A program made the position numbers and the translations under genes. DNA of 64,000 nucleotides from the sequence record PZ445527.1. One strand, 5' to 3'. Shown piece after piece: positions 5,470 to 61,709 of the stretch. Below the pieces are notes generated by a model that saw nothing but the letters and a program-made list of their open reading frames with translations, made no database searches and was not told where the DNA came from. How positions within the stretch are numbered: the first letter of the stretch is position 1; every line of letters begins with the position of its first letter. Source of the DNA: a phage.

Positions 5470-5516
5470 ATTCTCAAATGAGAATCATTCTCAAATGAGA
5501 ATGATTCTCATTTGAC
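5470..5516. repeat. imperfect palindromic repeats built on tctcaaatgagaatCattctca
   Basis: Direct reading; same aatgagaat motif family recurs at 5840-6030. Confidence 0.7.
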
Positions 5517-15231: not shown

Positions 15232-15771
15232 TTACTTGTTAAGCTCTTCTAAATCTGGTATATATCCAAGAAACTCCTCAATTAAAGCGTACTCCCCAGC
15301 AATCTCCTGTCTAGACTTATTCGCTAAGTCTACTGCCAGAGCTAAGTCTTCATAATTGAAGGTTCCTTTCATACGTTTTCGGCCTGTTTCATCCGTAATT
15401 TGAACTCTCCATTTCTGCCTATCTTTAGCCCACATAACATTTGCATATCCAGATTTGGACTTTCTATGCTTCTTATTACGACAATTTTGTGGTTTAGATG
15501 CAGAACGTAAGTTTTTCCATCGGTTATTTTGTGGATTTCTATCTATGTGATCCACAAATTCAGGTATATATCCTTCCATATATAGGAAGGCCCATCTATG
15601 GGCTCCCTGCCTCTCCCCTTCCACCATTATCATTATGTAATCATTGTTATATAGAGTTCCAGCTTCCATTCCCCTCTTTACATACTGATTATTACCATCT
15701 ATCTTCCAGGTAAATATCCCGGTTTCTGGATTATATTCTAGTAATTCTTTTAGTCTTTCTTGAGTGATCAC
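15232..15771 (-). CDS. HNH homing endonuclease (AP2-like N-terminal domain) 179 aa
   Basis: N-terminus MITQERLKELLEYNPETGIFTWK, HNH-type His/Asn core; paralog of 39016..39558. Confidence 0.7.
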   Translation of the reverse strand: MITQERLKELLEYNPETGIFTWKIDGNNQYVKRGMEAGTLYNNDYIMIMVEGERQGAHRWAFLYMEGYIPEFVDHIDRNPQNNRWKNLRSASKPQNCRNKKHRKSKSGYANVMWAKDRQKWRVQITDETGRKRMKGTFNYEDLALAVDLANKSRQEIAGEYALIEEFLGYIPDLEELNK

Positions 15772-24603: not shown

Positions 24604-24996
24604 CTATCGTTGTCTTGTTGAAACTCTATTTCTGGCCCTATGCGTAGAGGTCATAGAGTGGCAGTTAGGGCAGAGAATCTTTAGATTTTCTGGAGAACAG
24701 TTAGTTGCATCTCCATCTATATGATCTACCTCAGTTAAAACTGCTCCGTCAATTGGATGTTTCCCATCCCAACCACATACTTCACAAGCAGTACCACGAG
24801 TATCCCACAGCCACTTCCTAACAAAAGGTTTTAATTGTGCAGCTTTACCAGTATAACCAGGTTCTTCACCTGCCAGCCACTTTAATACTTTTTGCTTTGT
24901 CTGGTACTCCTGCTGACAAGCAGGACCACAATACTTACCTGCGGAACCTCTACTTTTAGGTTTTGTGATTCCGCAATTTAAACAAGTAAACTCCAT
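24604..24996 (-). CDS. HNH endonuclease 130 aa
   Basis: HNH core (HIDGD...N...NL..LCPNCH) with zinc-finger cysteines. Confidence 0.75.
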   Translation of the reverse strand: MEFTCLNCGITKPKSRGSAGKYCGPACQQEYQTKQKVLKWLAGEEPGYTGKAAQLKPFVRKWLWDTRGTACEVCGWDGKHPIDGAVLTEVDHIDGDATNCSPENLKILCPNCHSMTSTHRARNRVSTRQR

Positions 24997-38542: not shown

Positions 38543-39019
38543 TCACATCTCGGCAAGTTCTTGCTCAGTAATAACAGTATTACATAATGCGTCAACTTCT
38601 TCATTACCTCTAATACCTGAGTGCCCTTTAACCTTAATAAAGGTAGGGTTAGTATTATGAAAATTAATATACTGTTGGGTTAGTTTAAATGCTTCTTGCC
38701 ATAGTTCTAAATTGAGAGGAGCTTCACCATCTCCCTTCTTCCAGCCTTTCTTCTGCCAAGACCACATCCAGCTTTCCATACCATTTTTACAGTATGCAGA
38801 ATCAGTGTAGATTATAACTGGACGTTTATCATTCTTAGTAGCCCAGCGCAGAACTTCAACAATAGCTGTAAGTTCCATTTCATTGTTTGTGGTTTTTGGA
38901 CTGAAACCCGACTTAGAACCCAAACGTTCGTCATTAGGATCATAAACTACGAAACCCCAAGCACCTAAACCAGGATTACCTTTACAAGCCCCATCTGTAT
39001 ATATATGAAATGTACTCAT
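38543..39019 (-). CDS. rnhA: ribonuclease H (RNase HI type) 158 aa
   Basis: N-terminal FHIYTDGACKGNPG...WGF and conserved acidic residues. Confidence 0.8.
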   Translation of the reverse strand: MSTFHIYTDGACKGNPGLGAWGFVVYDPNDERLGSKSGFSPKTTNNEMELTAIVEVLRWATKNDKRPVIIYTDSAYCKNGMESWMWSWQKKGWKKGDGEAPLNLELWQEAFKLTQQYINFHNTNPTFIKVKGHSGIRGNEEVDALCNTVITEQELAEM

Positions 39020-39558
39020 TTATTAAGTTCCTCTAAAATAGGGGGTGGTTTTGTGGAATCAAAAGTTTCTATAACAGCGTTTTTACCGTGTAACTGTAGA
39101 CGAAGTTCATTGGCACATTGAATGGCGGATTCTAGGTCTTTGTACTCAAAATAACCACCATATACTGACTTTTTATCGGAGTCTCTAACATGTACTTGCC
39201 ATTTCTGATTTTGCCTATTCCAGCTAATTCCTAGATAACCAGATTTACTTCTAGTGGTTTTATTTCTCTGATTCTCTTGGTAATTAGATTTCCTGAGATT
39301 AATCCATCTATTATCATCTCGTATGCGGTTTATGTGGTCTACCATTTCCGGTAGATAGCCTTCCATATAGAGAAATGCTAGCTGATGCGCATAATATGGA
39401 TTTTTATCCACGGATATAGTTATATATCCGTCTTTTCTTAGATGACCAGCAATACTTCCTATTTTTCCGTTTCTACCCCTGACTCCCGTCCTTCTAGTAA
39501 ATATTCCGGTATCGGGGTTATAATCGAATAGTTCTTTTAATCTTTCTTGTGTGATCAT
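39016..39558 (-). CDS. HNH homing endonuclease (AP2-like N-terminal domain) 180 aa
   Basis: Paralog of 15232..15771 (same MITQERLKEL...YNP.TGIFT start). Confidence 0.7.
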   Translation of the reverse strand: MITQERLKELFDYNPDTGIFTRRTGVRGRNGKIGSIAGHLRKDGYITISVDKNPYYAHQLAFLYMEGYLPEMVDHINRIRDDNRWINLRKSNYQENQRNKTTRSKSGYLGISWNRQNQKWQVHVRDSDKKSVYGGYFEYKDLESAIQCANELRLQLHGKNAVIETFDSTKPPPILEELNK

Positions 39559-43175: not shown

Positions 43176-46100
43176 TTATAAGGTGCAGCCACCTGAAGAA
43201 CATCCTGTAGTTTCTCCAGCTCCTCCACCATTCGCAGTGTTAAAGTTAGCATAATACCAGGTTTTTATACCATACTTAACCGCAGTCATAAAGTCACGAA
43301 CTACTACTGGGCCAGGGATGATTTCATTCTCGAATTTAGAGTAATCATAATACATCTGGAAACTTGATGACTGACTCAAGAATTTTTGGTAAACGGCGTT
43401 CCACTTGATCCACTCAATACGATCTACATCATAGGCCAGTTTATAGCTCATGAGAGTATCCCAATCAGTTGCACCTGGGGCAATTGCAATTACTTTATTC
43501 ACTGCACTACCCTTGATAGATACAATCTTACGAGGTGGTTCAATAGAGTTAGTAACGCCTAACAGAACAGAGGAACTTTCTCCCGGCATCTGCGCAGTCA
43601 GAACAGAGTTACGCATACCGTATTTCAGAATGTCTGCACGCAGAGATTCCCAATCCATTTCTAGACCTACGGATACCAGCTCATCAACAGTTTTCTTATA
43701 CGTGTCGATTACCAGAATTCCTTTGGATGGTTTAGTACGATTAAACCATTCACATGCACCTTGTTCTTTAGCCAGACGTACAGAGGCTTTATGTAGGAAG
43801 TAAGACAGTTTTTCAGCTTCACGATGAATCCAGTTACGTGCTTCAACGCCTTCATAAGCCAAACCTTCCGCCGCCATTGCACCTGCTGCGTTCATCAGAC
43901 CAATACCAACATTACGACGTTTCTTAGCCGTATATTCCATAGTTGGGAACGGATAATCCTGAATTTCAATGATGGTATCAACGAATTTCAGGAGGATGTA
44001 GCAAGTTTTCTCCCACTCAGCCAGAGATTCCATGCGTCCTAGTACAACACCACCTAAGTTACACAGAGATACTTCACCAATATCCTCTGGCTTCATTTGA
44101 TCAAGCTGCTCTTTTGTCTTATACAGCTCTGTGATATGATGGAACGGGCGTGTAGGCTGAGTAATTTCTACACAGTTACCCGCTAAAATGCCATTAAATA
44201 CACCTAAGTTTAATTTAGGTTCTGTAAAGCAATAAGTATCACTAATACGACCAGTAAACTCAACGTTAGTTACAGTTACAAAACGGGTTGCGTCTCTATT
44301 GGGGCGTGTTAGGTTTAAGAGTTTCTCTTTATCCAAAGAGAGTCCTAAATCTTTAAGTTTCCAGAAGCCACTACTCCCCACAATAAGCCTACTAGTCTCC
44401 TTGCAGTGGTATAGTTTACTAGTACCAGTACCATCTGGTAACTCGTGGTCACCTTCTTTGCGTCCTAAAATAATCTTGCTAGTAACCCCCAATTCTAGTA
44501 ACAAATCCTTCACTTTACTTAGAAAATCAGGCTCTGCCGAAGCAACCACAATACTAGGAGTTGTGCCATTTTTCTGTATGCAGCCATCTGCATCTAAATA
44601 TCCCTCTAACCATTTGATACGGCTATCAATAGTATACTCTGGGCCAGGTACAAAATACTTCGGCATTAAATCAGACTTAACAATATAGCTCAGTCTACCT
44701 GTGCTGTCCAGTAATCCACTTCCCTGAATTTCTGCGTCAATTTTATCCACTAATGGTAGTTTGCCACCTTTTTCATAGAAGTACAGCTTAGGTTCTCCAT
44801 GTCTTCCATAAGTTCCATCTCCAGTGAAGAAACCGTTAGTATAAGGAGATTTTAGTACCATATTTCCATGATCTACAATAGGATTACTAAATTTAGGCAT
44901 TTTCATACCTACTTGCAAGTCTACTGCTCGTACCTCTTCTAGCCCCTGTTTGAAAGAGGTACGACGATCCTCTCTGACATATTTGGGCTGGTGGTAGAAC
45001 TTATGATAAAGAGTAGATTCAATAGTAGATCCATCAGAGAATGTGATTTTTATCAACTCCTGAGCTTCCCCAGTTTTAGTAGGGATAACTGTTGACCATT
45101 CTTGTCCGTTCCAAATCTCTACTTCTTTACCAACTAAATCAATAATCTCTATGTTACCATTTTTGGTTAAAATTTTTGTTTCTGGAGCTACACAAAGGTT
45201 TGTCATACGGATTGGATCAAGGAAGTTACCGTGACGATTAGATTCCCCGATGTGGTGCGCATACATACGTCCTGTTTCCATTCGGATACGTAGCCAAGTA
45301 TCTAGGATTTCTTTTGCAGAGACTTTAGGAGCTGCTGGAACTGTTTTTCCTTCGTGGTCGATCTTTGTAAGAGATGCCACACGTTTCTCCGCTGCCACGT
45401 AGATTTCTTCAAATTTAGCCTCGTCATCACTATAAAACGCTTCATGAACTTCTGGAGCATAGAAGTATGACATTAGCGTAATATCTTCATTTTTCAGATA
45501 ACGTTTTAACAAAAGATTGTTGAAGCTCAGAGAATAATCCATCTTATCAATTTTATTCTCGTCTGTAGCACGTTGTTGCTTAACCTGCATCAACTGAATG
45601 ATTTCAGGGTCAAAGTATGGATAAGACACTGTAGCAGAACCACCACGAGTTTGCTGAGTATTGGCCTTTACTGAGCGATCAATGTGTCGATAATATGGCA
45701 GTTTTCCGGAATGCGGGAATGCCCCATTTCGCACCGGATCAGCAATTGATCTGCTTTCAAGATGATACCCGATTCCCGCTCTGGCTGCAACCATTTTGAA
45801 GACGATGTGCTCGGCGGTGTCGATTGAATCCAACGTGTCAGTGGAATCCACGAGGCAGCAACTAGCAAATCCACGGTCACTAGAGCGCAGACCAACCAGT
45901 GGCGGCGTAGGAACGTTGATTTTGTGGAGCGACATTGCGTTGTAGAGGTCGATTGCATCTAGAATTGTCCAGTTAGGTTGAGATAACATCGCCATTGCCA
46001 TACCCATGTAGGCAAACTGCGGAGTTTCATAAATTTCACCAGTGGCTATGTTGCGGCGGGAATACTTATCAAAGAACTGCTTCAGTCCACCACTAGTAAA

Positions 46101-46523
46101 AAGACGGTCACGATCATGGTCGATAACCTGATTCAGAGCTTCAAATTGCTCATCGGTAATCCATGCACTCATGTCTTCCCATGCACCTACGCTAACCATG
46201 TGGTCATGGAAGAAGCGCAGAGAAGGTGGTTCGAAGGAATCATAAAGGCGTTTACGCATTTGCGCAAGACGTAATTCCTTTGCTGGCACATCGTATGCTG
46301 GGTTATCTTTGATAAGGCTTTCAGCAGCCTTAATTAATGCGTCCATCAGAGTGTCGGAATCTACAACCCCTTTAGGCAGAGTTTTTTGAGCAGCCATAGT
46401 AATGGCTGACCAACTTACATCAACTGTTTTGCAACCATACTCTGCCCAACCATTGAGTTTTTCAGGAGCAAAGTCTTCTACAGTACCGTCACGTTTAATT
46501 ACTTTTTCAATGCGATGGCTCAT
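43176..46523 (-). CDS. nrdA: ribonucleotide reductase class Ia large subunit (NrdA) containing a 340-aa intein
   Basis: ATP-cone start MSHRIEKVIKRDG (ORF track start trimmed to ATG 46523 behind a consensus promoter and SD), catalytic-site motif TNLC...VEI interrupted by intein; extein about 776 aa. Confidence 0.9.
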   Translation of the reverse strand: MSHRIEKVIKRDGTVEDFAPEKLNGWAEYGCKTVDVSWSAITMAAQKTLPKGVVDSDTLMDALIKAAESLIKDNPAYDVPAKELRLAQMRKRLYDSFEPPSLRFFHDHMVSVGAWEDMSAWITDEQFEALNQVIDHDRDRLFTSGGLKQFFDKYSRRNIATGEIYETPQFAYMGMAMAMLSQPNWTILDAIDLYNAMSLHKINVPTPPLVGLRSSDRGFASCCLVDSTDTLDSIDTAEHIVFKMVAARAGIGYHLESRSIADPVRNGAFPHSGKLPYYRHIDRSVKANTQQTRGGSATVSYPYFDPEIIQLMQVKQQRATDENKIDKMDYSLSFNNLLLKRYLKNEDITLMSYFYAPEVHEAFYSDDEAKFEEIYVAAEKRVASLTKIDHEGKTVPAAPKVSAKEILDTWLRIRMETGRMYAHHIGESNRHGNFLDPIRMTNLCVAPETKILTKNGNIEIIDLVGKEVEIWNGQEWSTVIPTKTGEAQELIKITFSDGSTIESTLYHKFYHQPKYVREDRRTSFKQGLEEVRAVDLQVGMKMPKFSNPIVDHGNMVLKSPYTNGFFTGDGTYGRHGEPKLYFYEKGGKLPLVDKIDAEIQGSGLLDSTGRLSYIVKSDLMPKYFVPGPEYTIDSRIKWLEGYLDADGCIQKNGTTPSIVVASAEPDFLSKVKDLLLELGVTSKIILGRKEGDHELPDGTGTSKLYHCKETSRLIVGSSGFWKLKDLGLSLDKEKLLNLTRPNRDATRFVTVTNVEFTGRISDTYCFTEPKLNLGVFNGILAGNCVEITQPTRPFHHITELYKTKEQLDQMKPEDIGEVSLCNLGGVVLGRMESLAEWEKTCYILLKFVDTIIEIQDYPFPTMEYTAKKRRNVGIGLMNAAGAMAAEGLAYEGVEARNWIHREAEKLSYFLHKASVRLAKEQGACEWFNRTKPSKGILVIDTYKKTVDELVSVGLEMDWESLRADILKYGMRNSVLTAQMPGESSSVLLGVTNSIEPPRKIVSIKGSAVNKVIAIAPGATDWDTLMSYKLAYDVDRIEWIKWNAVYQKFLSQSSSFQMYYDYSKFENEIIPGPVVVRDFMTAVKYGIKTWYYANFNTANGGGAGETTGCSSGGCTL
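44175..45194 (-). mobile_element. intein (340 aa) with LAGLIDADG homing-endonuclease domain, inserted at the NrdA catalytic Cys
   Basis: Starts with Cys (CVAPETKIL) right after TNL, ends ...ILAGN followed by +1 Cys (CVEITQP), restoring NLCVEI; LAGLIDADG-like blocks FFTGDG and LEGYLDADG. Confidence 0.8.
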
Positions 46524-46561
46524 TTGGTTTTCCTTTTTATAGTTATCAGGATTTAAGGAAT

Positions 46562-46590
46562 ATTCTACATTATTATTGGTCATTAGGCAA
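46562..46590 (-). promoter_or_regulatory. sigma70 promoter for nrdA (TTGCCT-17-TAGAAT)
   Basis: Minus strand; followed by AAAAGGAAAA SD and ATG at 46523. Confidence 0.6.
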
Positions 46591-46667
46591 ATAAAATTTT
46601 CTGATAGAAAAGGCCCGAGTATTTTCATACCCAGGCCCTCTGTGTTGTCAGTCTAGTTTTTGGCCAC

Positions 46668-47945: not shown

Positions 47946-48611
47946 ATGGTAAGAAAGAAAATAACTACAGAAGATGTGAACTTAGCACTTGCTCCCAGAG
48001 GAATAATTATGCTAAGCACGTATATATCAGCTAAATCCAATGCTATATTTAAGTGCTCTAATGGGCATAGTTGGGAGGCTAGAGTAGATAATGTAAAAGG
48101 TGGGAGAGGTTGCCCTTATTGTGCTAGTCGTACTTTAGATCTTAAAGAGGTAAATGAATCCTTAGCTGCTCGTGGAATAAAGATGGAAGGTAAATACATC
48201 AATTCTAAGAGTAAAATTATGTTCAGCTGTGAGAATGATCATAGGTGGGAGTCTACCCTTGATAGTGTTAGAAATCATAATTCTGGTTGTCCTATATGTT
48301 TATTAGAGAAGGATAATTATCCTACTAACGTATATATTTTAGTAAGTAGTATGGGAACCAAAATAGGGATGTCTAGCAGAACTAAAGATAGACTCAGAGA
48401 TATTAAAACTTCTTCTAACATACATGATTTAAAAATATTTAAGGAATATAGCTTTTCAGATAGATCAAAAGCTGTGCGTATTGAAAGAGAAGCCCATTTA
48501 CAGTTTAAGGAATATAATTGTCAGTACAAAGATTTTGATGGTGCTACAGAATTTTTTAGTATTGAGCCAGAAGTAGTAGCAAGGTTTATTGAGGAAATAA
48601 TTAATGAATAA
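47946..48611 (+). CDS. zinc-ribbon repeat + T5orf172 (GIY-YIG-related) domain protein 221 aa
   Basis: Two C..GH.W....G.GCP.C repeats (CSNGHSWEARVDNVKGGRGCPYC; CENDHRWESTLDSVRNHNSGCPIC) and a KIGMSSRTKDRLRDIKT segment. Confidence 0.6.
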   Translation: MVRKKITTEDVNLALAPRGIIMLSTYISAKSNAIFKCSNGHSWEARVDNVKGGRGCPYCASRTLDLKEVNESLAARGIKMEGKYINSKSKIMFSCENDHRWESTLDSVRNHNSGCPICLLEKDNYPTNVYILVSSMGTKIGMSSRTKDRLRDIKTSSNIHDLKIFKEYSFSDRSKAVRIEREAHLQFKEYNCQYKDFDGATEFFSIEPEVVARFIEEIINE

Positions 48612-50451: not shown

Positions 50452-50459
50452 GCTAATCA

Positions 50460-50490
50460 GCCAGGTTGCTAGTCGACCTGGCTTTTATTT
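50460..50490 (+). terminator. rho-independent terminator after nrdD
   Basis: Stem gccaggt/acctggc followed by TTTT. Confidence 0.7.
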
Positions 50491-50550: not shown

Positions 50551-50931
50551 ATGAAAGTAAAACCCTATATAGTTGAGTCTACGTGCGGGAGTTTCCATCT
50601 AGGAGTGGATGATATTGCAGAAGCTATCTTTGCTGCTACAGGTGATTACTCCCATATAGGGGGTGCTGCATACCCCACCGTTATTGGTGATTGGGCGGAA
50701 ACAAATCTAGATGTATCACCATATAGCTCACATTGCTTGTTTGATGAAGACAGAGATGAGGTAAAATGTAATCTTGAATTTGTATACAATAGAGTACTAA
50801 AAGTCTATCAACACAGTGTTGAGGGATATGAAGATATTACTGGAAGTATTAAACAATATCTTAAAGATGTATACTCTAATTTTTCTGATGAAGACCTGGA
50901 AACAGTTGCAGTGGAGTTTAATAATGACTAA
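50551..50931 (+). CDS. hypothetical acidic protein 126 aa
   Basis: ORF track; SD gagaggaga. Confidence 0.6.
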   Translation: MKVKPYIVESTCGSFHLGVDDIAEAIFAATGDYSHIGGAAYPTVIGDWAETNLDVSPYSSHCLFDEDRDEVKCNLEFVYNRVLKVYQHSVEGYEDITGSIKQYLKDVYSNFSDEDLETVAVEFNND

Positions 50932-51157
50932 GAATGTGAAACACCTTAAATATCGCTTAATCTATAACGGACGTATGGAAACTGAAGAGCTAGCTCAATT
51001 AGCTATTAACTCTAGTGAGGTTATGGTGCGTGCGCTAGCAATTGAAAAGTTGCGTGCTTCTTATGAAAGCCGTATTATGCAACTGGAGGAAACCCTTTAT
51101 GGGCTTCTTGAATCAGAAGCTAAAAGCAACCCAGAGGATAGACCTACTAAGCAATAA
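50926..51157 (+). CDS. hypothetical protein (about 77 aa)
   Basis: ORF track 50816..51157 trimmed to ATG 50926 overlapping previous stop. Confidence 0.45.
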
Positions 51158-51211
51158 AAGGTATGCATATTATGGAATAATTTTACCCCAAAACATTATC
51201 GAAGGATTTAA

Positions 51212-52051
51212 GTGAGGAACTGTACAGTGCGTAGATTAATTATTATTAGCGGTGCAGGTTTGAGCGTTGAAAGTGGTGTACGAGCCTTCCGTACTGATAC
51301 TGCTAGTGGTAAAGCATTGTGGGATGATTATGACTTAGAAGAGGTATGTAATATTCATGCCTTTCGTGGTAATTTTTATCATAAAACCCATATGTTTTAC
51401 AACAAGCGTCGTGAAGAGCTAAAAACTATTGAACCCAATCTTGCGCATCTTCGTATTGGTGAGTGGTATAAACAATACCCAGGTCAAGTAGTAAACTTGA
51501 CTACTAACGTCGATGACCTTATTGAGCGTGCTGGCGTTCCGCATAGTGACATTCTACATATTCATGGGTATTTAAAAGAGGTTGTTGTAGCTGACAGCTA
51601 CAATAGCAGTAATAAACGAGTTATTGATGTTGGGTATAGCTCTATTGACCCAGATGATTATAAATGGGTTAAACCTAATGTAATCTTCTTTGGTGAGCAT
51701 GCTCCAGCGTACGCAGAAATGTACAATATTTTTGATGGTATTACCAGTCAAGATATGATCGTTGTAGTTGGTTGCTCTAACCAAGTAATTAACTTCTACT
51801 GGGAATTATTCCCTGTTCTTAATTTGACTGCTGCCAAATTAATGGTAGTTAACTACTATGATAGTGCCCTAGCGACAGAGCCAGGCTATCAAGGTATGAC
51901 TCGTAGTGAGATGTACCAGCTGGAAGAACGCGGTATCCCTTACTGGAGTAAAGGGGCTGTAGATGCCTTCAGTGACCCTGATTTTATTACTCGTGTAGAA
52001 GCTCATCTAGAGGGTAGACCTTATATGCCGGGGAAACAAATATGTCCATAA
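51212..52051 (+). CDS. Sir2-family (sirtuin-like) NAD-dependent protein 279 aa, no zinc-ribbon cysteines
   Basis: GAGLSVESGVRAFR, TNVDDL and HIHG blocks; GTG start with GAAGGA SD; no CxxC pairs. Confidence 0.75.
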   Translation: MRNCTVRRLIIISGAGLSVESGVRAFRTDTASGKALWDDYDLEEVCNIHAFRGNFYHKTHMFYNKRREELKTIEPNLAHLRIGEWYKQYPGQVVNLTTNVDDLIERAGVPHSDILHIHGYLKEVVVADSYNSSNKRVIDVGYSSIDPDDYKWVKPNVIFFGEHAPAYAEMYNIFDGITSQDMIVVVGCSNQVINFYWELFPVLNLTAAKLMVVNYYDSALATEPGYQGMTRSEMYQLEERGIPYWSKGAVDAFSDPDFITRVEAHLEGRPYMPGKQICP

Positions 52052-52224
52052 TTAAATCTGTGTATACACACCCTGATGATATATTTGTATGGGCGGATGG
52101 TAGTTGGTGCTATCGCTGTGAGCTGTGGGAAATGGACTATAAATCCGATGACTATGGTGTCATATATGTTGATACGGTTGAGTATGATACGTTCTTAGAA
52201 AGGGACAAAAGTGGAAATAAGTAA
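52042..52224 (+). CDS. hypothetical protein 60 aa
   Basis: ORF track. Confidence 0.4.
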   Translation: MSIIKSVYTHPDDIFVWADGSWCYRCELWEMDYKSDDYGVIYVDTVEYDTFLERDKSGNK

Positions 52225-52719
52225 TACTCCGATTATTTTTCTAGACATTGATGGGGTGCTCAATTCGAGCATCTCCCACCATCATGCACCTGATGATGAA
52301 AAGATTTTCTTTGGAAGTGACTGGGTTTTCAAACCGCTTCTCAAGGCTTTTCAGGACTTTATTCGTCCTTCTCCGATAATGATTGTTGGAGTATCCTCAT
52401 GGTTCTCTGTCAGGAATGAGGTGGAGAACGTTCACATTATGACCGGATTAGGTCTTATCGATCGTTTTCTAGGTACAACGGATTTTACAGGGGGGTGGAT
52501 TATCTAGGGGTAATTCTGTTCTTCGTTTCGTTGAAAAGCATAAGCTCAAACATTGGTGTGTGCTGGATGATGCTGGTGCTATGATGTATCAGTATCCAAC
52601 AGTTATAGTCAATGGTAGGACTGGGATAAATCTTCAAGATTTAAAAGCTGTTAGCTATATGCTAGAATTTAGCCCAGATCTTGAAATGTGTAAATCCTTA
52701 CAACAATTTAAGGTGTAAA
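52211..52719 (+). pseudogene. HAD-like hydrolase gene split into two frames at a G6 tract (52490-52495)
   Basis: N-terminal ORF 52211..52507 carries HAD motif I (FLDIDGVLN); downstream frame to stop 52717-52719 continues with a WCVLDDAG-type motif; one fewer G would fuse them. Confidence 0.5.
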
Positions 52720-52720
52720 T

Positions 52721-53149
52721 ATGTTCAATAATGTATTCTCTAAAGAAGCTAACCCAATTTTGGTTAACTTTTGGCGTACTCTTCCAGCCAACCTATACAA
52801 TGAGGCTATTAATGCTCTGAAAATATGGTGTGAGAATAATGAAATCTCCTTTGCTTTTAAAGGTGAGATTGAAGAGGCTCCGTGTATTGGTTTAATTGTG
52901 CAGGTGGAGGATGGTCTTGAAGAGATTGTCGGCTGGAAAGAGTTAGATGAAATGGGCTTGGTTTTTGCATTAAACTATAAGCTGTTTATGCCTAATAAAC
53001 ACCGTATTGTTGTTAATTATAAAACCAGTGAATCTCCTGGTTTTCAAGTTAATGAACGGTATGGTTGGTCTTACTCACCAGAAGAGGTAAATGATGGTAT
53101 CCAAAAACTTCGCCGTTTTGGTTATCAAATTCCGGGTTTAACTGCCTAA
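52721..53149 (+). CDS. hypothetical protein 142 aa (paralog of next gene)
   Basis: ORF track; shared blocks PCIG...MGL..ALN..LF...PGL with 53159..53545. Confidence 0.6.
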   Translation: MFNNVFSKEANPILVNFWRTLPANLYNEAINALKIWCENNEISFAFKGEIEEAPCIGLIVQVEDGLEEIVGWKELDEMGLVFALNYKLFMPNKHRIVVNYKTSESPGFQVNERYGWSYSPEEVNDGIQKLRRFGYQIPGLTA

Positions 53150-53158
53150 GGAGGCACA

Positions 53159-53545
53159 ATGGAACAAGTATATTGGCGTCAGATTGATCCTAGTTTAGTG
53201 AAGCGTGCAGAGAAGCTGCTACAACGTTGGTTGGGGGTAAGACAAGCCTCCTTCACTTTTCCGGAGCAGCAAACGGATGATCCCTGTATTGGTGTTTTCC
53301 TATCAGGCTACGCTAGGGAATTGGATTGGAATGAGTTGTCTGCTATGGGTTTAATTGTTGCACTAAATTTCTTTTTGTTCCATCCACGTGGTTTGGCCAT
53401 ATGTCGTGTGCCTGATGACGGTTGTTCGCCCCATCTTTTACAGGTGAAAGATGATACTTGGGAGTACACTCCAGATATTCTCAAAGAAGCCAAAGAACAA
53501 TTGAATCGTGTTGGAATCTATGTTCCAGGCCTGAATGATGAATGA
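53159..53545 (+). CDS. hypothetical protein 128 aa (paralog of previous gene)
   Basis: ORF track; AGGAGG SD. Confidence 0.6.
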   Translation: MEQVYWRQIDPSLVKRAEKLLQRWLGVRQASFTFPEQQTDDPCIGVFLSGYARELDWNELSAMGLIVALNFFLFHPRGLAICRVPDDGCSPHLLQVKDDTWEYTPDILKEAKEQLNRVGIYVPGLNDE

Positions 53546-53568: not shown

Positions 53569-53593
53569 GCCGAGTCATTTTGGCTCGGTTTTC
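53569..53593 (+). terminator. rho-independent terminator
   Basis: Stem ccgag/ctcgg with TTTT. Confidence 0.55.
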
Positions 53594-57049: not shown

Positions 57050-57266
57050 AAAATGGGAAACAAGGAAGCTTCCAGTAAAAGAACGTAAAGTTCCTGTTTA
57101 TGATACTTCGGAAAAGCTATGTAGGGTGGTTCCTGCTAGACTAGCTGGCATCCCTAACATATCCGAGTGGTTACTTAAACAACGGAGGACTAACGTATCT
57201 CTTCGCATAGGGTTTGAGTTAGATAAAGTATATGCTGAACTTTCTTCTTTGCTCAAGGAACAATAA
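57033..57266 (+). CDS. small hypothetical protein (start uncertain)
   Basis: ORF track 57024..57266; overlaps end of helicase gene. Confidence 0.3.
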   Translation: MTVKNKKWETRKLPVKERKVPVYDTSEKLCRVVPARLAGIPNISEWLLKQRRTNVSLRIGFELDKVYAELSSLLKEQ

Positions 57267-57838
57267 TGTTTATAAGAATTCCTAAATTTCCTGACTATGC
57301 AGTGAATGAAAATGGAGAGGTGTATTCTTTTCTCTCCTACAAGTTTCTTACTCCAGGTCAAAATACTGCTGGGTACTTACAAGTTAATTTAATGAAGGAC
57401 GGTCCCCCTATAAATATGAGGGTGCATAGGTTAGTAGCCTATTGTTTTGGACTACTTCCTGGGTTAGAATCAGAATTGGTAGTAGACCATATAAATGATG
57501 ATAAGTTAGATCCTAGACTATCTAACTTGCAGGTATTAACCTACAGAGCTAATGCAATAAAATTTCATAATAAAAATTGGAGAGAACATCCAGATTTCCT
57601 AGTAGAAATTAAGAAATTAGAAAGTATGGGCATAACTAAAGCAGCTGCATCCTATAGGCGCAAGGCTATGCTTAAATACATTGTGGCTGTTCCCTCTAGT
57701 GATACTCTAACCTTAGAATTAATAGAATCTACATATCAGAAAACCAATTCTTGGAGAAAAACTGCTAGAGTGCTTGGATTTAAAAGCGCCCCAGCTATTC
57801 TTTATAGATATAACAAGCTGAAAGCAGCTTCTTTATAA
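57266..57838 (+). CDS. HNH homing endonuclease 190 aa
   Basis: NUMOD4-like N-terminus (IPKFPDYAVNENGEVYS) and HNH core (VVDHINDDKLDPRLSNLQVL). Confidence 0.7.
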   Translation: MFIRIPKFPDYAVNENGEVYSFLSYKFLTPGQNTAGYLQVNLMKDGPPINMRVHRLVAYCFGLLPGLESELVVDHINDDKLDPRLSNLQVLTYRANAIKFHNKNWREHPDFLVEIKKLESMGITKAAASYRRKAMLKYIVAVPSSDTLTLELIESTYQKTNSWRKTARVLGFKSAPAILYRYNKLKAASL

Positions 57839-60103: not shown

Positions 60104-61075
60104 ATGACTAATGTAAAAGAATTTATTAAACGCTGTCAAGAAGCATATTATCAAGGCATGTCTTTAATCTCTGATGAAGAATATGATCGTCTGGTAAAAC
60201 GCTTCCCGTTAGAGGAAGAGATCGGGCCTAAGGGTGATATTCCACACCTATATCGTATGTATTCTTTACAGAAAGTTTATTATAATCGTGGGGATAAACC
60301 ACCATTCAATCCTTTAGGTCAGGTGGAAACCGATAAGTTAGATGGTTGTGCAATTTCTCTGCTATATATTAACGGTGAATTTGTTCAAGCATTAACCCGT
60401 GGTAACGGTATTCTGGGGAATGATGTCACAAGCAACGTAAGATTGCTGAACATCCCTAAAAAGATTTCCCAAAAAGTACCTACCCAAATCACTGGTGAAG
60501 TTCTAATTACAAAGGAAGTAGAAAATAAACGTAACTTTGCCTCTGGTGCTATTAACCTCAAAGATAGCAATGATTTTGTACAACGCATTGGAGAAGGCGG
60601 TTTAATTTTTGTTGCTTATGGTATCCAATGTTCTGCTGAATCTGTAGGTATTACAGAAGCATACTTAAAAGATATGCTTTGGCTAGAGAATGAGAACTTC
60701 TTAACAGTTGTTAATGTACGTTCCTTCTTTAAATGGATTCCAACCGACGGTAAAGTTGTTCGTATTAATGATAATAATAAATTCTTCCGCGAAGGGTGGA
60801 CTAATAAATTCCCTCGTGGAGCATTCGCTATTAAAGAGGATGAAGAAGGCGAGATTACAACTCTTACTAAAGTTGAATGGGCGACAGGAGCGTCTGGTAA
60901 AGTAACTCCAGTTGGTTATTTCGAACCGGTAATTATTGATGATGCAGTTATTACAAAAGCCACCCTTAATAATGTAGATTATATTAAATCACTAGATTTA
61001 GAGATCGGATGTCAGATTAGAGTAGTACGTGCAGGCGGTGTGATACCAAAGATTGTGGAAAGAGTTTATGAATAG
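60104..61075 (+). CDS. NAD-dependent DNA ligase, N-terminal part (adenylation + OB-fold) 323 aa
   Basis: Adenylation motif KLDG (ETDKLDGCAISL) and LigA-like blocks; ends before the Zn-finger/HhH/BRCT region. Confidence 0.8.
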   Translation: MTNVKEFIKRCQEAYYQGMSLISDEEYDRLVKRFPLEEEIGPKGDIPHLYRMYSLQKVYYNRGDKPPFNPLGQVETDKLDGCAISLLYINGEFVQALTRGNGILGNDVTSNVRLLNIPKKISQKVPTQITGEVLITKEVENKRNFASGAINLKDSNDFVQRIGEGGLIFVAYGIQCSAESVGITEAYLKDMLWLENENFLTVVNVRSFFKWIPTDGKVVRINDNNKFFREGWTNKFPRGAFAIKEDEEGEITTLTKVEWATGASGKVTPVGYFEPVIIDDAVITKATLNNVDYIKSLDLEIGCQIRVVRAGGVIPKIVERVYE

Positions 61076-61709
61076 CGGAGTTTATCCACTGATAGTAAAA
61101 GGATATAAATATGTTGGCTATTCCAGAAATATTGATAGAAGGTTTAAGGAGCATACATATACTTATGTTACTAATCTAGGTCATATAGACTCCCATATCC
61201 CGAGAAACTTACTAGGTGTACAGGTACAGAAGTCAGATATAAGCATAGAAATTCTAGAGTATATTTCTCCGGAAGAGAGTACTGATGTATTTTTAAGGGC
61301 AGAAGATTTGTGGATACAGAGGATTTGTCCAGAGCTAAATACAAACGTTCCTTTATCTAACTTAGTCGAAGCAGTAGAATATTGTATTTCAAACCCATCT
61401 GAAACGTATAAATCAGCGGCCTCAAAGTTCAACATTACACCTAAAATGTTAGAGCATGTTGCCTCTGGAGGATATAACTCCTTAGGATGCATTTTATCAA
61501 GAAGTACTTTAGAACTATTTCGTAGTAAGAAATATAAAGAACTAATATTAGTACACGAAAATGGGGCTAGGTTTGTAGCGACGTCTTACCTTGAATTACA
61601 TAGATTATCTGGGCTAGATAGGCATAGAATATCTGACCTACATAAAGGCAAGTACCCCACCTTTAAAGGGTGGACCCTTTTAACCCCATCTACCATATCG
61701 GAATTATAA
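61068..61709 (+). CDS. GIY-YIG homing endonuclease inserted between the two ligase ORFs
   Basis: GIY-YIG motif near N-terminus (GVYPLIVKGYKYVGYSRNIDRRFKEH); ATG 61068 overlaps ligase stop. Confidence 0.7.
   Translation: MNSGVYPLIVKGYKYVGYSRNIDRRFKEHTYTYVTNLGHIDSHIPRNLLGVQVQKSDISIEILEYISPEESTDVFLRAEDLWIQRICPELNTNVPLSNLVEAVEYCISNPSETYKSAASKFNITPKMLEHVASGGYNSLGCILSRSTLELFRSKKYKELILVHENGARFVATSYLELHRLSGLDRHRISDLHKGKYPTFKGWTLLTPSTISEL

What the first reader, a model, noticed from the sequence alone, without database searches (positions are those of the whole stretch)
52211..52719. HAD-like hydrolase gene interrupted at a G6 homopolymer
ORF 52211..52507 ends 12 nt after a run of six G (52490-52495); the next frame continues a HAD-like sequence to the stop at 52717-52719. 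A single-G change fuses them into about 165 aa. This could be a sequencing error, a recent inactivating frameshift, or slippage-dependent expression.
Basis: seen in the sequence. Interest (0 to 1): 0.5.

Follow-up and report, generated by a model that had tools for sequence, protein, structure and literature searches.

The report
One-base frameshift in phage phosphatase gene
A small, conserved phosphatase-like gene of this T5-like phage is broken by one extra base found in no other sequenced phage; this is an ordinary recent knock-out mutation or a sequencing error, not a special decoding signal.

Summary
The G6 run is at 52490-52495. ORF 52211..52507 (98 aa) stops 12 nt after the run.

Both halves match one Pfam domain, PF18143 HAD_SAK_2, colinearly. 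The window is a T5-like phage (Tequintavirus), and the gene is the orthologue of T5.105. It is an intact 507-nt, 168-aa gene in about 450 phage records.

The window has 508 nt. Its closest relatives already carry the same G6 (TAC GGGGGG TGG), so the extra base is most simply A52489, just 5' of the run. The window's allele occurs in none of 50,697 phage records; the in-frame G6 allele occurs in 10.

Removing one base gives a protein 100% identical to that of Salmonella phage EH1. The break falls inside the invariant GGGxxRG motif and removes the DD motif, so the 98-aa product should be inactive. No other annotated gene of the two relatives compared is frame-broken in the 64 kb.

Verdict: a fresh, isolate-specific one-base insertion in a dispensable accessory gene. 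It is either a real mutation or a consensus error, and reads are needed to decide. Programmed slippage is not supported. Low interest.

The parts
52211..52718 (+). Whole frameshifted gene, 508 nt. It is the orthologue of T5.105 / HASG4_00131, a stand-alone HAD_SAK_2 phosphatase-like protein that is 168 aa when intact.
   Evidence: Alignment to 507-nt intact genes of HASG4, Elw, GEC_N5, Bf23, T5, FFH1 and EH1. Pfam PF18143 at 71.7 bits on the HASG4 orthologue. 473 phage records carry the gene.
52211..52507 (+). 5' reading frame as written: 98 aa with a GTG start, ending TGGWII then TAG at 52505-52507. It keeps HAD motif I (DIDGV, D12/D14) and the SSWF motif. It loses G96, R99, G100 and D119/D120.
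   Evidence: Invariant columns of alignments A2/A3.
52489..52495 (+). The lesion: A52489 followed by G6 (52490-52495). This is 7 nt where intact relatives have 6 (GGGGGG, CGGGGG, TGGGGG, TGGTGG, GGGAGG).
   Evidence: The allele is absent from 50,697 phage records, while the in-frame G6 allele is present in 10.
52473..52718 (+). +1 frame, open from 52473. From 52491 it encodes the ancestral C-terminal part (GGGLSRG...VLDDAG...QQFKV) up to TAA at 52716-52718.
   Evidence: tblastn frames. PF18143 positions 89-138.
52560..52718 (+). The only mechanical ORF in the downstream frame (GTG start, 52 aa). It starts 21 codons after the break, lacks the GGGxxRG motif and the Rossmann core, and has no convincing ribosome-binding site.
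   Evidence: sequence read; motif positions.
50551..53545 (+). The co-directional gene cluster holding the gene. It includes a Sir2-like gene (51212..52051), a 60-aa ORF (52042..52224), the HAD gene, and two tandem phrog_2502 paralogues (52721..53149, 53159..53545). Terminator-like hairpins flank it at 50459-50483 and 53569-53589.
   Evidence: Same order in T5 (T5.102-T5.107), HASG4 and FFH1.

Best explanation
The gene is the T5.105-type stand-alone HAD (HAD_SAK_2) phosphatase of a T5-like phage. In this genome it carries one extra nucleotide at the G run that encodes the invariant Gly-Gly-Gly of its GGGxxRG motif.

The simplest event is an A inserted at 52489. The alternative is one extra G plus a silent change of the preceding threonine wobble base.

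The insertion shifts the frame, and translation stops five codons later at TAG 52505-52507. The resulting 98-aa product keeps the nucleophile motif DxDGV. It lacks the conserved Arg99/Gly100 and the Mg-binding DD motif, so it should be catalytically dead. The downstream part has no start signal of its own.

I read this as a genuine, very recent, isolate-specific loss-of-function mutation in an accessory gene that T5-like phages can lose. It probably arose by replication error at a run boundary and became fixed during isolation or plaque purification. It is not a programmed or conserved feature.

Shown here: the frameshift, its uniqueness, its freshness, the family assignment and the loss of invariant motifs. 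Inferred: that the base is really in the phage DNA, that the product is inactive, and the mutational route.
For: - The gene is intact at 507 nt in all relatives inspected, and 451 of 473 phage records carry at least 80% of it in one place.
- The window's allele is in 0 of 50,697 phage records, against 10 records for the in-frame G6 control.
- It is also absent from genome contigs, IMG/VR, metagenomes and the 15-billion protein collection.
- The repaired product is 100% identical over 168 aa to that of phage EH1 (H116). It differs from HASG4 by only 2 synonymous sites.
- Purifying selection acts on both halves (pN/pS about 0.03-0.07), with no excess of non-synonymous change downstream of the break. 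The lesion is therefore fresh.
- The break lies inside invariant columns G95 G96 R99 G100 and upstream of D119 D120. The structure model has pLDDT 94 and its best PDB matches are HAD phosphatases.
- The assembly is otherwise clean. A tblastn scan used all ORFs of at least 45 aa from HASG4 and FFH1. This was the only annotated CDS with an internal frame break in the 64 kb.
- The extra base is an A, not a seventh G. A simple homopolymer over-call on the HASG4-type haplotype would have given G7.
- The gene is dispensable. DT57C retains only aa 128-168 in a deletion hybrid annotated as a defective Sir2. Other isolates carry independent truncations (SP_Thor 117 aa; MET_P1-197_41 and S.Ent 1-35-3).
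Against: - No reads are available, so the base cannot be verified.
- The break sits at one of only two G/C runs of 6 or more in the window, which is the classic place for base-calling or polishing errors.
- Two of the three other frameshifted alleles found come from low-grade records: an unverified SPAdes contig and a 41-kb partial genome. This hints that such breaks in databases are often artefacts.
- Complete absence of the allele elsewhere, and zero downstream decay, are equally expected for an error.
- Insertion of a non-repeated A is not a typical slippage product.
Confidence: 0.5

Rival explanations
1. Sequencing, polishing or assembly error. The phage really has the intact 507-nt gene, and the extra base at the edge of the G6 run exists only in the consensus sequence.
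For: - The break is at one of only two G/C homopolymers of 6 or more in 64 kb.
- The allele is unique among 50,697 phage records and all other collections searched.
- The repaired protein is 100% identical to an existing protein, and the downstream part shows no decay.
- The gene is under strong purifying selection in relatives.
- Another record with a length change at the very same run (G5) is an unverified contig.
Against: - The rest of the window shows no other frame-broken annotated gene against two relatives, so the assembly is not generally error-prone.
- The extra base is an A, whereas a homopolymer over-call on the closest haplotype would give G7.
- The haplotype that would make it a pure G5-to-G6 over-call (ACA GGGGG T) was not found in any T5-like sequence. 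The eight 17-mer hits in IMG/VR lie in unrelated sequence.
Confidence: 0.42
2. Recoding. The frameshift is real but partly bypassed. One route is +1 re-pairing of tRNA-Gly on GGG GGG U. The other is RNA polymerase slippage on the G6 run. Either would yield some full-length protein identical to the ancestral one (…TGGGLSR…).
For: - A +1 slip of a P-site tRNA-Gly from GGG (52490-92) to GGG (52491-93) re-pairs perfectly and restores exactly the ancestral sequence.
- The G-rich stretch AGGGGGGUGG resembles a Shine-Dalgarno sequence, as found upstream of the prfB +1 site (my own knowledge of prfB).
- The RNA from 52484 to 52600 folds somewhat better than shuffles (z = -2.4).
Against: - The two-frame arrangement is not conserved at all.
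- All of the surrounding sequence is ancestral and is read in frame in relatives, so nothing there was selected for shifting.
- Many relatives break the run (TGGTGG, GGGAGG).
- No stop or known hungry codon follows the slip site. The next 0-frame codons are GGG, UGG, AUU, AUC, and the stop lies three codons past the run.
- From general knowledge, six G is short for transcriptional slippage, which usually needs 8-9 or more A or T.
Confidence: 0.04
3. A deliberately split enzyme: two separately translated polypeptides (98 aa and about 52-75 aa) that assemble into a functional HAD phosphatase.
For: Both halves still carry recognisable parts of the domain.
Against: - No relative has two ORFs.
- The first start codon in the downstream frame is GTG at 52560, which lacks a ribosome-binding site and lies 21 codons past the break. 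The invariant GGGxxRG motif would therefore be missing from both pieces.
- The break lies at the start of helix 97-110, in the middle of the single Rossmann-like domain of the model.
Confidence: 0.01

Closest known systems
T5.105 of phage T5 (YP_006933.1) and its orthologues in Tequintavirus/Epseptimavirus (HASG4_00131 QBQ81384.1; EH1 WMM34905.1; 'RNA repair protein' of vB_EcoD-Elw WOZ54434.1)
   Same: - Same position between the 60-aa T5.104-like ORF and the T5.106/T5.107 paralogues, downstream of the Sir2-like gene.
- 94-98% DNA identity over the 901-nt stretch spanning the gene.
- The repaired protein is 100% identical to EH1's.
   Different: The window's copy has one extra base (508 against 507 nt) and therefore a premature stop. 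All of these orthologues are intact.
Pfam PF18143 HAD_SAK_2, the HAD domain of 'Swiss Army Knife' RNA repair proteins. These are stand-alone HAD phosphatases of phages, proposed to remove terminal phosphates from cleaved RNA (PMC7824862, section 3.4.9).
   Same: - Score well above the gathering cut-off (71.7 against 27.5 bits on the orthologue).
- All 22 homologues found carry PF18143.
- DxDGV, SSW, GGGxxRG and DD motifs are conserved.
   Different: - The RNA-repair role is a computational proposal, and no activity has been tested for the T5 family.
- No RNA ligase or kinase gene lies among the immediate neighbours scanned here.
- This copy is broken.
Cap-less small HAD phosphatases with solved structures: human MDP-1 (2wm8), the KdsC/YrbI family (2p9j, 2r8e), and the T4 polynucleotide kinase phosphatase domain (2ia5)
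   Same: The best structural matches of the high-confidence model are all of the HAD fold.
   Different: - The matches are weak (best E 1.5e-3, TM 0.4-0.56, 13-21% identity).
- There is no PDB match by sequence.
- This shows a distant family relationship only, not the same enzyme.
prfB (RF2) type programmed +1 frameshifting
   Same: Both have a G-rich Shine-Dalgarno-like stretch, and a +1 shift would restore the functional frame (sequence; prfB from my own knowledge).
   Different: - Here the arrangement is not conserved.
- There is no stop or slow codon at the slip position.
- The context is simply the ancestral in-frame coding sequence.
Natural losses of the same gene in other T5-like phages: the DT57C deletion hybrid, and the SP_Thor, MET_P1-197_41 and S.Ent 1-35-3 alleles
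   Same: These are independent disruptions of the same accessory gene. S.Ent 1-35-3 is changed at the same G run (G5).
   Different: The lesions differ: a large deletion, a truncation before WCVLDD, and 1-nt deletions. None shares the window's insertion.

Membership tests
HAD superfamily / Pfam PF18143 HAD_SAK_2 | Profile score above Pfam's gathering cut-off | tested here: met
   The HASG4 orthologue scores 71.7 bits against a cut-off of 27.5. The window's N-terminal ORF scores 42.6 bits (profile positions 1-78). The C-terminal piece alone scores 23.4 bits (positions 89-138), which is below the cut-off on its own.
HAD superfamily / Pfam PF18143 HAD_SAK_2 | Motif I: DxD nucleophile/acid pair after the first strand | tested here: met
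   F10 L11 D12 I13 D14 G15 V16 L17 N18 are invariant in 17 homologues down to 36% identity. The motif is present in the window at 52238-52264, within ORF 52211..52507.
HAD superfamily / Pfam PF18143 HAD_SAK_2 | Motif II (Ser/Thr) and motif IV (acidic DD) present | tested here: met
   S62/S63 and D119/D120 are invariant or nearly so. In the window, D119/D120 are encoded only in the +1 frame, downstream of the premature stop.
HAD superfamily / Pfam PF18143 HAD_SAK_2 | Motif III basic residue (Lys/Arg) | tested here: inconclusive
   R99 in the invariant GGGxxRG is the only invariant basic residue. Calling it motif III is my inference, not tested structurally against a ligand.
HAD superfamily / Pfam PF18143 HAD_SAK_2 | Rossmann-like alpha/beta HAD fold | tested here: met
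   AlphaFold2 model of a 97%-identical homologue: pLDDT 94.1, pTM 0.91. The top PDB matches are HAD phosphatases (2p9j, 2r8e, 2wm8 with prob 1.00 and TM 0.56, 2ia5), but the E-values are weak.
HAD superfamily / Pfam PF18143 HAD_SAK_2 | Uninterrupted reading frame (a functional member) | tested here: not met
   The gene is 508 nt against 507 nt, with a premature TAG at 52505-52507.
HAD superfamily / Pfam PF18143 HAD_SAK_2 | Phosphatase activity on RNA or nucleotide substrates | not testable with these tools
   The only available basis is a computational proposal in the literature (PMC7824862).
Programmed ribosomal frameshift site | The two-frame arrangement is conserved among orthologues | tested here: not met
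   0 of 50,697 phage records hold the allele. All inspected orthologues are single 507-nt ORFs. In a 60-record sample spread across the tblastn ranking, one record matched in two frame pieces, and its break is at a different site.
Programmed ribosomal frameshift site | Slippery sequence allowing tRNA re-pairing in the new frame | tested here: met
   GGG GGG U allows perfect +1 re-pairing of tRNA-Gly and restores TGGGLSR. This is a by-product of three conserved Gly codons.
Programmed ribosomal frameshift site | Stimulator: a slow or stop codon at the A site, a correctly spaced SD-like element, or a selected downstream structure | tested here: inconclusive
   The stop lies three codons past the run. 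The G-rich stretch is SD-like, and the downstream fold has z = -2.4. All of these are equally present in relatives that read the region in frame.
Programmed ribosomal frameshift site | Trans-frame protein product observed | not testable with these tools
   Needs mass spectrometry or a reporter assay.
Phase-variable homopolymer (contingency locus) | A long tract (usually 8 or more) with frequent length polymorphism among strains | tested here: not met
   The tract is 6 nt. One record has G5 and ten have G6 in frame. Most relatives have interrupted runs such as TGGTGG, TGGGGG, CGGGGG and GGGAGG.
Split (two-subunit) gene | Two ORFs with their own start signals, conserved in relatives | tested here: not met
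   No relative is split at this site. The first downstream start is GTG at 52560, which has no ribosome-binding site and lies 21 codons past the break.

The most novel reading that the evidence does not exclude
The extra base is real, and the G GGG GGG U context lets a fraction of ribosomes (or RNA polymerases) shift by one. The phage would then still make a low level of a phosphatase identical to the ancestral protein. This would be a freshly arisen, unselected 'leaky' frameshift, showing how a conserved Gly-Gly-Gly codon run can buffer its own indels.
Probability: 0.04. Interest if true: 0.35.

Novelty: already known. Interest (0 to 1): 0.1.

Why it matters
The main value is for annotation.
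- The two ORFs should be annotated as one frameshifted T5.105-type HAD_SAK_2 gene, flagged 'verify with reads', and not as two hypothetical proteins.
- If the base is real, this phage is a natural knock-out of a conserved but uncharacterised phosphatase. It has near-isogenic intact relatives (HASG4, EASG3), which would help in testing what the gene does.
- The G run encoding the invariant GGG motif appears to be a recurrent indel site in T5-like records.
- The analysis also exposes a propagated mislabel: many records call this HAD gene 'Sir2 (NAD-dependent deacetylase)'.

Tried and rejected
- A nucleotide-level list of all indels against HASG4 was too noisy at 4-12% divergence to judge assembly quality. 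I replaced it with tblastn of every ORF of at least 45 aa from HASG4 and FFH1 against the window. I checked each two-frame case against the annotations. All except the HAD gene lie in intergenic DNA, on the non-coding strand, or upstream of start codons.
- I looked for the window's allele elsewhere: phages with a 111-nt query and a 36-nt query, genome contigs, IMG/VR and metagenomes with a gapped pattern, and the exact 98-aa product. Nothing was found.
- I looked for a putative ACA+G5 ancestor that would make the lesion a pure G5-to-G6 run expansion. There was no 28-mer match in phages. The eight 17-mer hits in IMG/VR lie in unrelated sequence.
- A PDB sequence search gave no hit even at E 10. 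The fold search gave only weak HAD matches.
- Literature searches for HAD_SAK_2 and Swiss Army Knife RNA repair found no experimental work on the T5 gene. Only a general comparative statement was usable.
- The downstream RNA structure is mildly stable but is shared with in-frame relatives, so it says nothing about recoding.
- The 52-aa downstream ORF as an independent gene was rejected. It has no ribosome-binding site, lacks conserved motifs, and is not conserved as a separate ORF.

Full report
**What is in the sequence.** The window reads ...ACG GAT TTT ACA GGG GGG TGG ATT ATC TAG at 52476-52507, with GGGGGG at 52490-52495. ORF 52211..52507 starts at GTG, encodes 98 aa and ends ...TDFTGGWII. 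The +1 frame is open from 52473. From 52491 it reads GGGLSRGNSVLRFVEKHKLKHWCVLDDAG...QQFKV up to TAA at 52716-52718. The gene spans 508 nt, so one base must be removed to fuse the frames, which gives 168 aa. The two pieces match one Pfam domain colinearly: PF18143 HAD_SAK_2, profile positions 1-78 and 89-138.

**Where the window comes from, and the orthologues.** The window is a T5-like phage (Demerecviridae, Tequintavirus). The best matches to the 901-nt stretch spanning the gene are phages HASG4 and EASG3 at 98%. The genome itself is not in the collections searched. The gene is the orthologue of T5.105. It is a single intact 507-nt ORF in HASG4, Elw, GEC_N5, Bf23, T5, FFH1 and EH1. By tblastn it is present in 473 phage records, 451 of them with at least 80% of the protein in one place.

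**Nature of the lesion.** Aligned with the relatives, the window has exactly one extra base. The closest relatives (HASG4, EASG3, vB_Sen_I1, GEC_N3/N5, NBSal003) read TAC GGGGGG TGG, that is ACG GGG GGT GGA, so the G6 run is ancestral and in frame. The window reads TAC A GGGGGG TGG.
- The single-event reading is an A inserted at 52489.
- The two-event alternative is a silent change of the threonine wobble base plus one extra G. That wobble base is G, C or T in relatives. The intermediate ACA+G5 haplotype was not found in any T5-like sequence.
- Only two G/C runs of 6 or more exist in the 64 kb.
- An unverified contig of another phage, S.Ent 1-35-3, has G5 at the same place.

The run is therefore probably involved mechanistically, whether in replication or in sequencing.

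**Uniqueness and age.**
- A 36-nt query in which every 28-mer seed spans the junction finds nothing in 50,697 phage records. The same query without the A finds 10 records at 100% identity.
- The allele is also absent from genome contigs, IMG/VR and metagenomes.
- The 98-aa product is absent from the 15-billion-protein collection.
- The repaired protein is 100% identical over all 168 residues to that of Salmonella phage EH1. It differs from HASG4 by two synonymous sites only.
- Across seven relatives, pN/pS is about 0.03-0.07 in both halves. The now out-of-frame half shows no non-synonymous change against HASG4, EH1, Elw or FFH1.

The lesion is thus evolutionarily brand new, or not real.

**Consequence for the protein.** Seventeen homologues down to 36% identity share invariant FLDIDGVLN (motif I), SSWF, G95 G96 R99 G100 V103 and, nearly or fully, V117 D119 D120 G122.
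- The frameshift falls inside the GGGxxRG motif.
- The truncated product loses G96, R99, G100 and the DD motif.
- A model of a 97%-identical homologue is confident (pLDDT 94.1), and its best PDB matches are all HAD phosphatases, although weak.

From the established chemistry of HAD enzymes, loss of the acidic motif IV and of the basic residue should abolish activity (inference). The downstream frame has no start before GTG at 52560 and no ribosome-binding site, so the C-terminal part is probably not made.

**Real mutation or artefact?** A tblastn scan with every ORF of at least 45 aa from HASG4 and FFH1 found this to be the only annotated CDS whose match to the window switches frame internally (checked). 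The assembly is therefore not generally error-prone. The extra base is also not the G7 that a plain homopolymer over-call would give. On the other side, the site is a G homopolymer, the allele is unique, and the downstream half shows no decay. All of this fits an error equally well.

The gene is clearly dispensable for plaque formation in at least one relative. DT57C keeps only residues 128-168, in a deletion hybrid annotated as a defective Sir2. SP_Thor, MET_P1-197_41 and S.Ent 1-35-3 carry independent truncations.

I put a genuine recent knock-out at about 0.5 and a consensus error at about 0.42. Only reads can separate them.

**Recoding.** A +1 re-pairing of tRNA-Gly on GGG GGG U would restore exactly the ancestral protein. 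However, none of the defining signs of a programmed site is present.
- The arrangement is not conserved.
- The surrounding sequence is the ancestral in-frame coding sequence.
- No stop or slow codon sits at the slip position.
- Many relatives break the run altogether, including T5, FFH1, Bf23 and EH1.
- The downstream RNA fold (z = -2.4) is shared with in-frame relatives.

I give this about 0.04. A deliberately split enzyme gets about 0.01.

**Comparison with the known.** The family is PF18143. It comprises stand-alone 'Swiss-army-knife' HAD phosphatases of phages, proposed to remove terminal phosphates during RNA repair (PMC7824862). No experiment on the T5 gene was found. Everything here is an ordinary member of known kinds: a known gene family and a common type of lesion. 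Interest is low. The useful output is correct annotation and, if the base is real, a natural knock-out.

Noticed in passing
window 52211..52718; T5 NC_005859.1 57588-58094 (L012:1589-2095); DT57C NC_027356.1 46493-46765 (L020:1054-1326): Many RefSeq and other records label this HAD gene 'Sir2 (NAD-dependent deacetylase)'. phrog_18062 (92 positions, labelled Sir2) matches residues 77-168 of the HAD protein and only weakly matches the true Sir2-like protein. DT57C has a deletion hybrid ORF that starts where the Sir2 gene starts and ends with HAD residues 128-168. The hybrid may be the source of the propagated mislabel.
   Followed up: partly
L019 (OR845040.1, S.Ent 1-35-3), site aligned to window 52489-52495; L018 (PV785641.1, MET_P1-197_41), about 35 nt downstream: Two other records carry independent 1-nt deletions in the same gene. 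One is at the very same G run (G5 instead of G6). The other is at GAAAA-CAT. Both come from low-grade records, and whether they are real variants is unknown.
   Followed up: partly
window 43176..46628 (- strand), insertion about 44175-45189: The ribonucleotide reductase large-subunit ORF is 1150 aa here against 811 aa in HASG4. The in-frame extra segment of about 339 aa contains a LAGLIDADG domain (residues 672-758), so it is most likely an intein in NrdA.
   Followed up: partly
window 39016..39558 (-), 15232..15771 (-), 24604..24996 (-), 57266..57838 (+), 61053..61709 (+), 47946..48611 (+): Several free-standing homing-endonuclease-type genes sit in segments that have no aligned counterpart in HASG4: four HNH, one GIY-YIG between the two DNA-ligase halves, and one T5orf172/MUG113. 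This is typical mobile-element variation among T5-like phages.
   Followed up: partly
window 52721..53149 and 53159..53545: These are two tandem paralogous genes (142 and 128 aa) immediately downstream. Both belong to phrog_2502 of unknown function (T5.106/T5.107). Some records annotate them inconsistently as 'exonuclease', 'tail protein' or 'tail tube protein'.
   Followed up: no
window 52042..52224: The 60-aa ORF (T5.104-like, phrog_5116) belongs to a 90%-identity protein cluster whose representative and most members are 271-278-aa Sir2-like proteins. This is odd for a protein encoded after the Sir2 gene. It may reflect fused ORF calls in some genomes or a clustering artefact.
   Followed up: no
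MT233524.1 7381-7719 (L022): In Salmonella phage vB_Sen_I1 the orthologue is annotated as only 339 nt (112 aa), although the DNA aligns full-length with the window and has the in-frame G6. This is probably a different start call or another upstream difference.
   Followed up: no
window 5494-5510: A 17-nt insertion relative to HASG4 creates a near-perfect inverted repeat (ATCATTCTCAAATGAGAATGAT) in a non-coding stretch.
   Followed up: no
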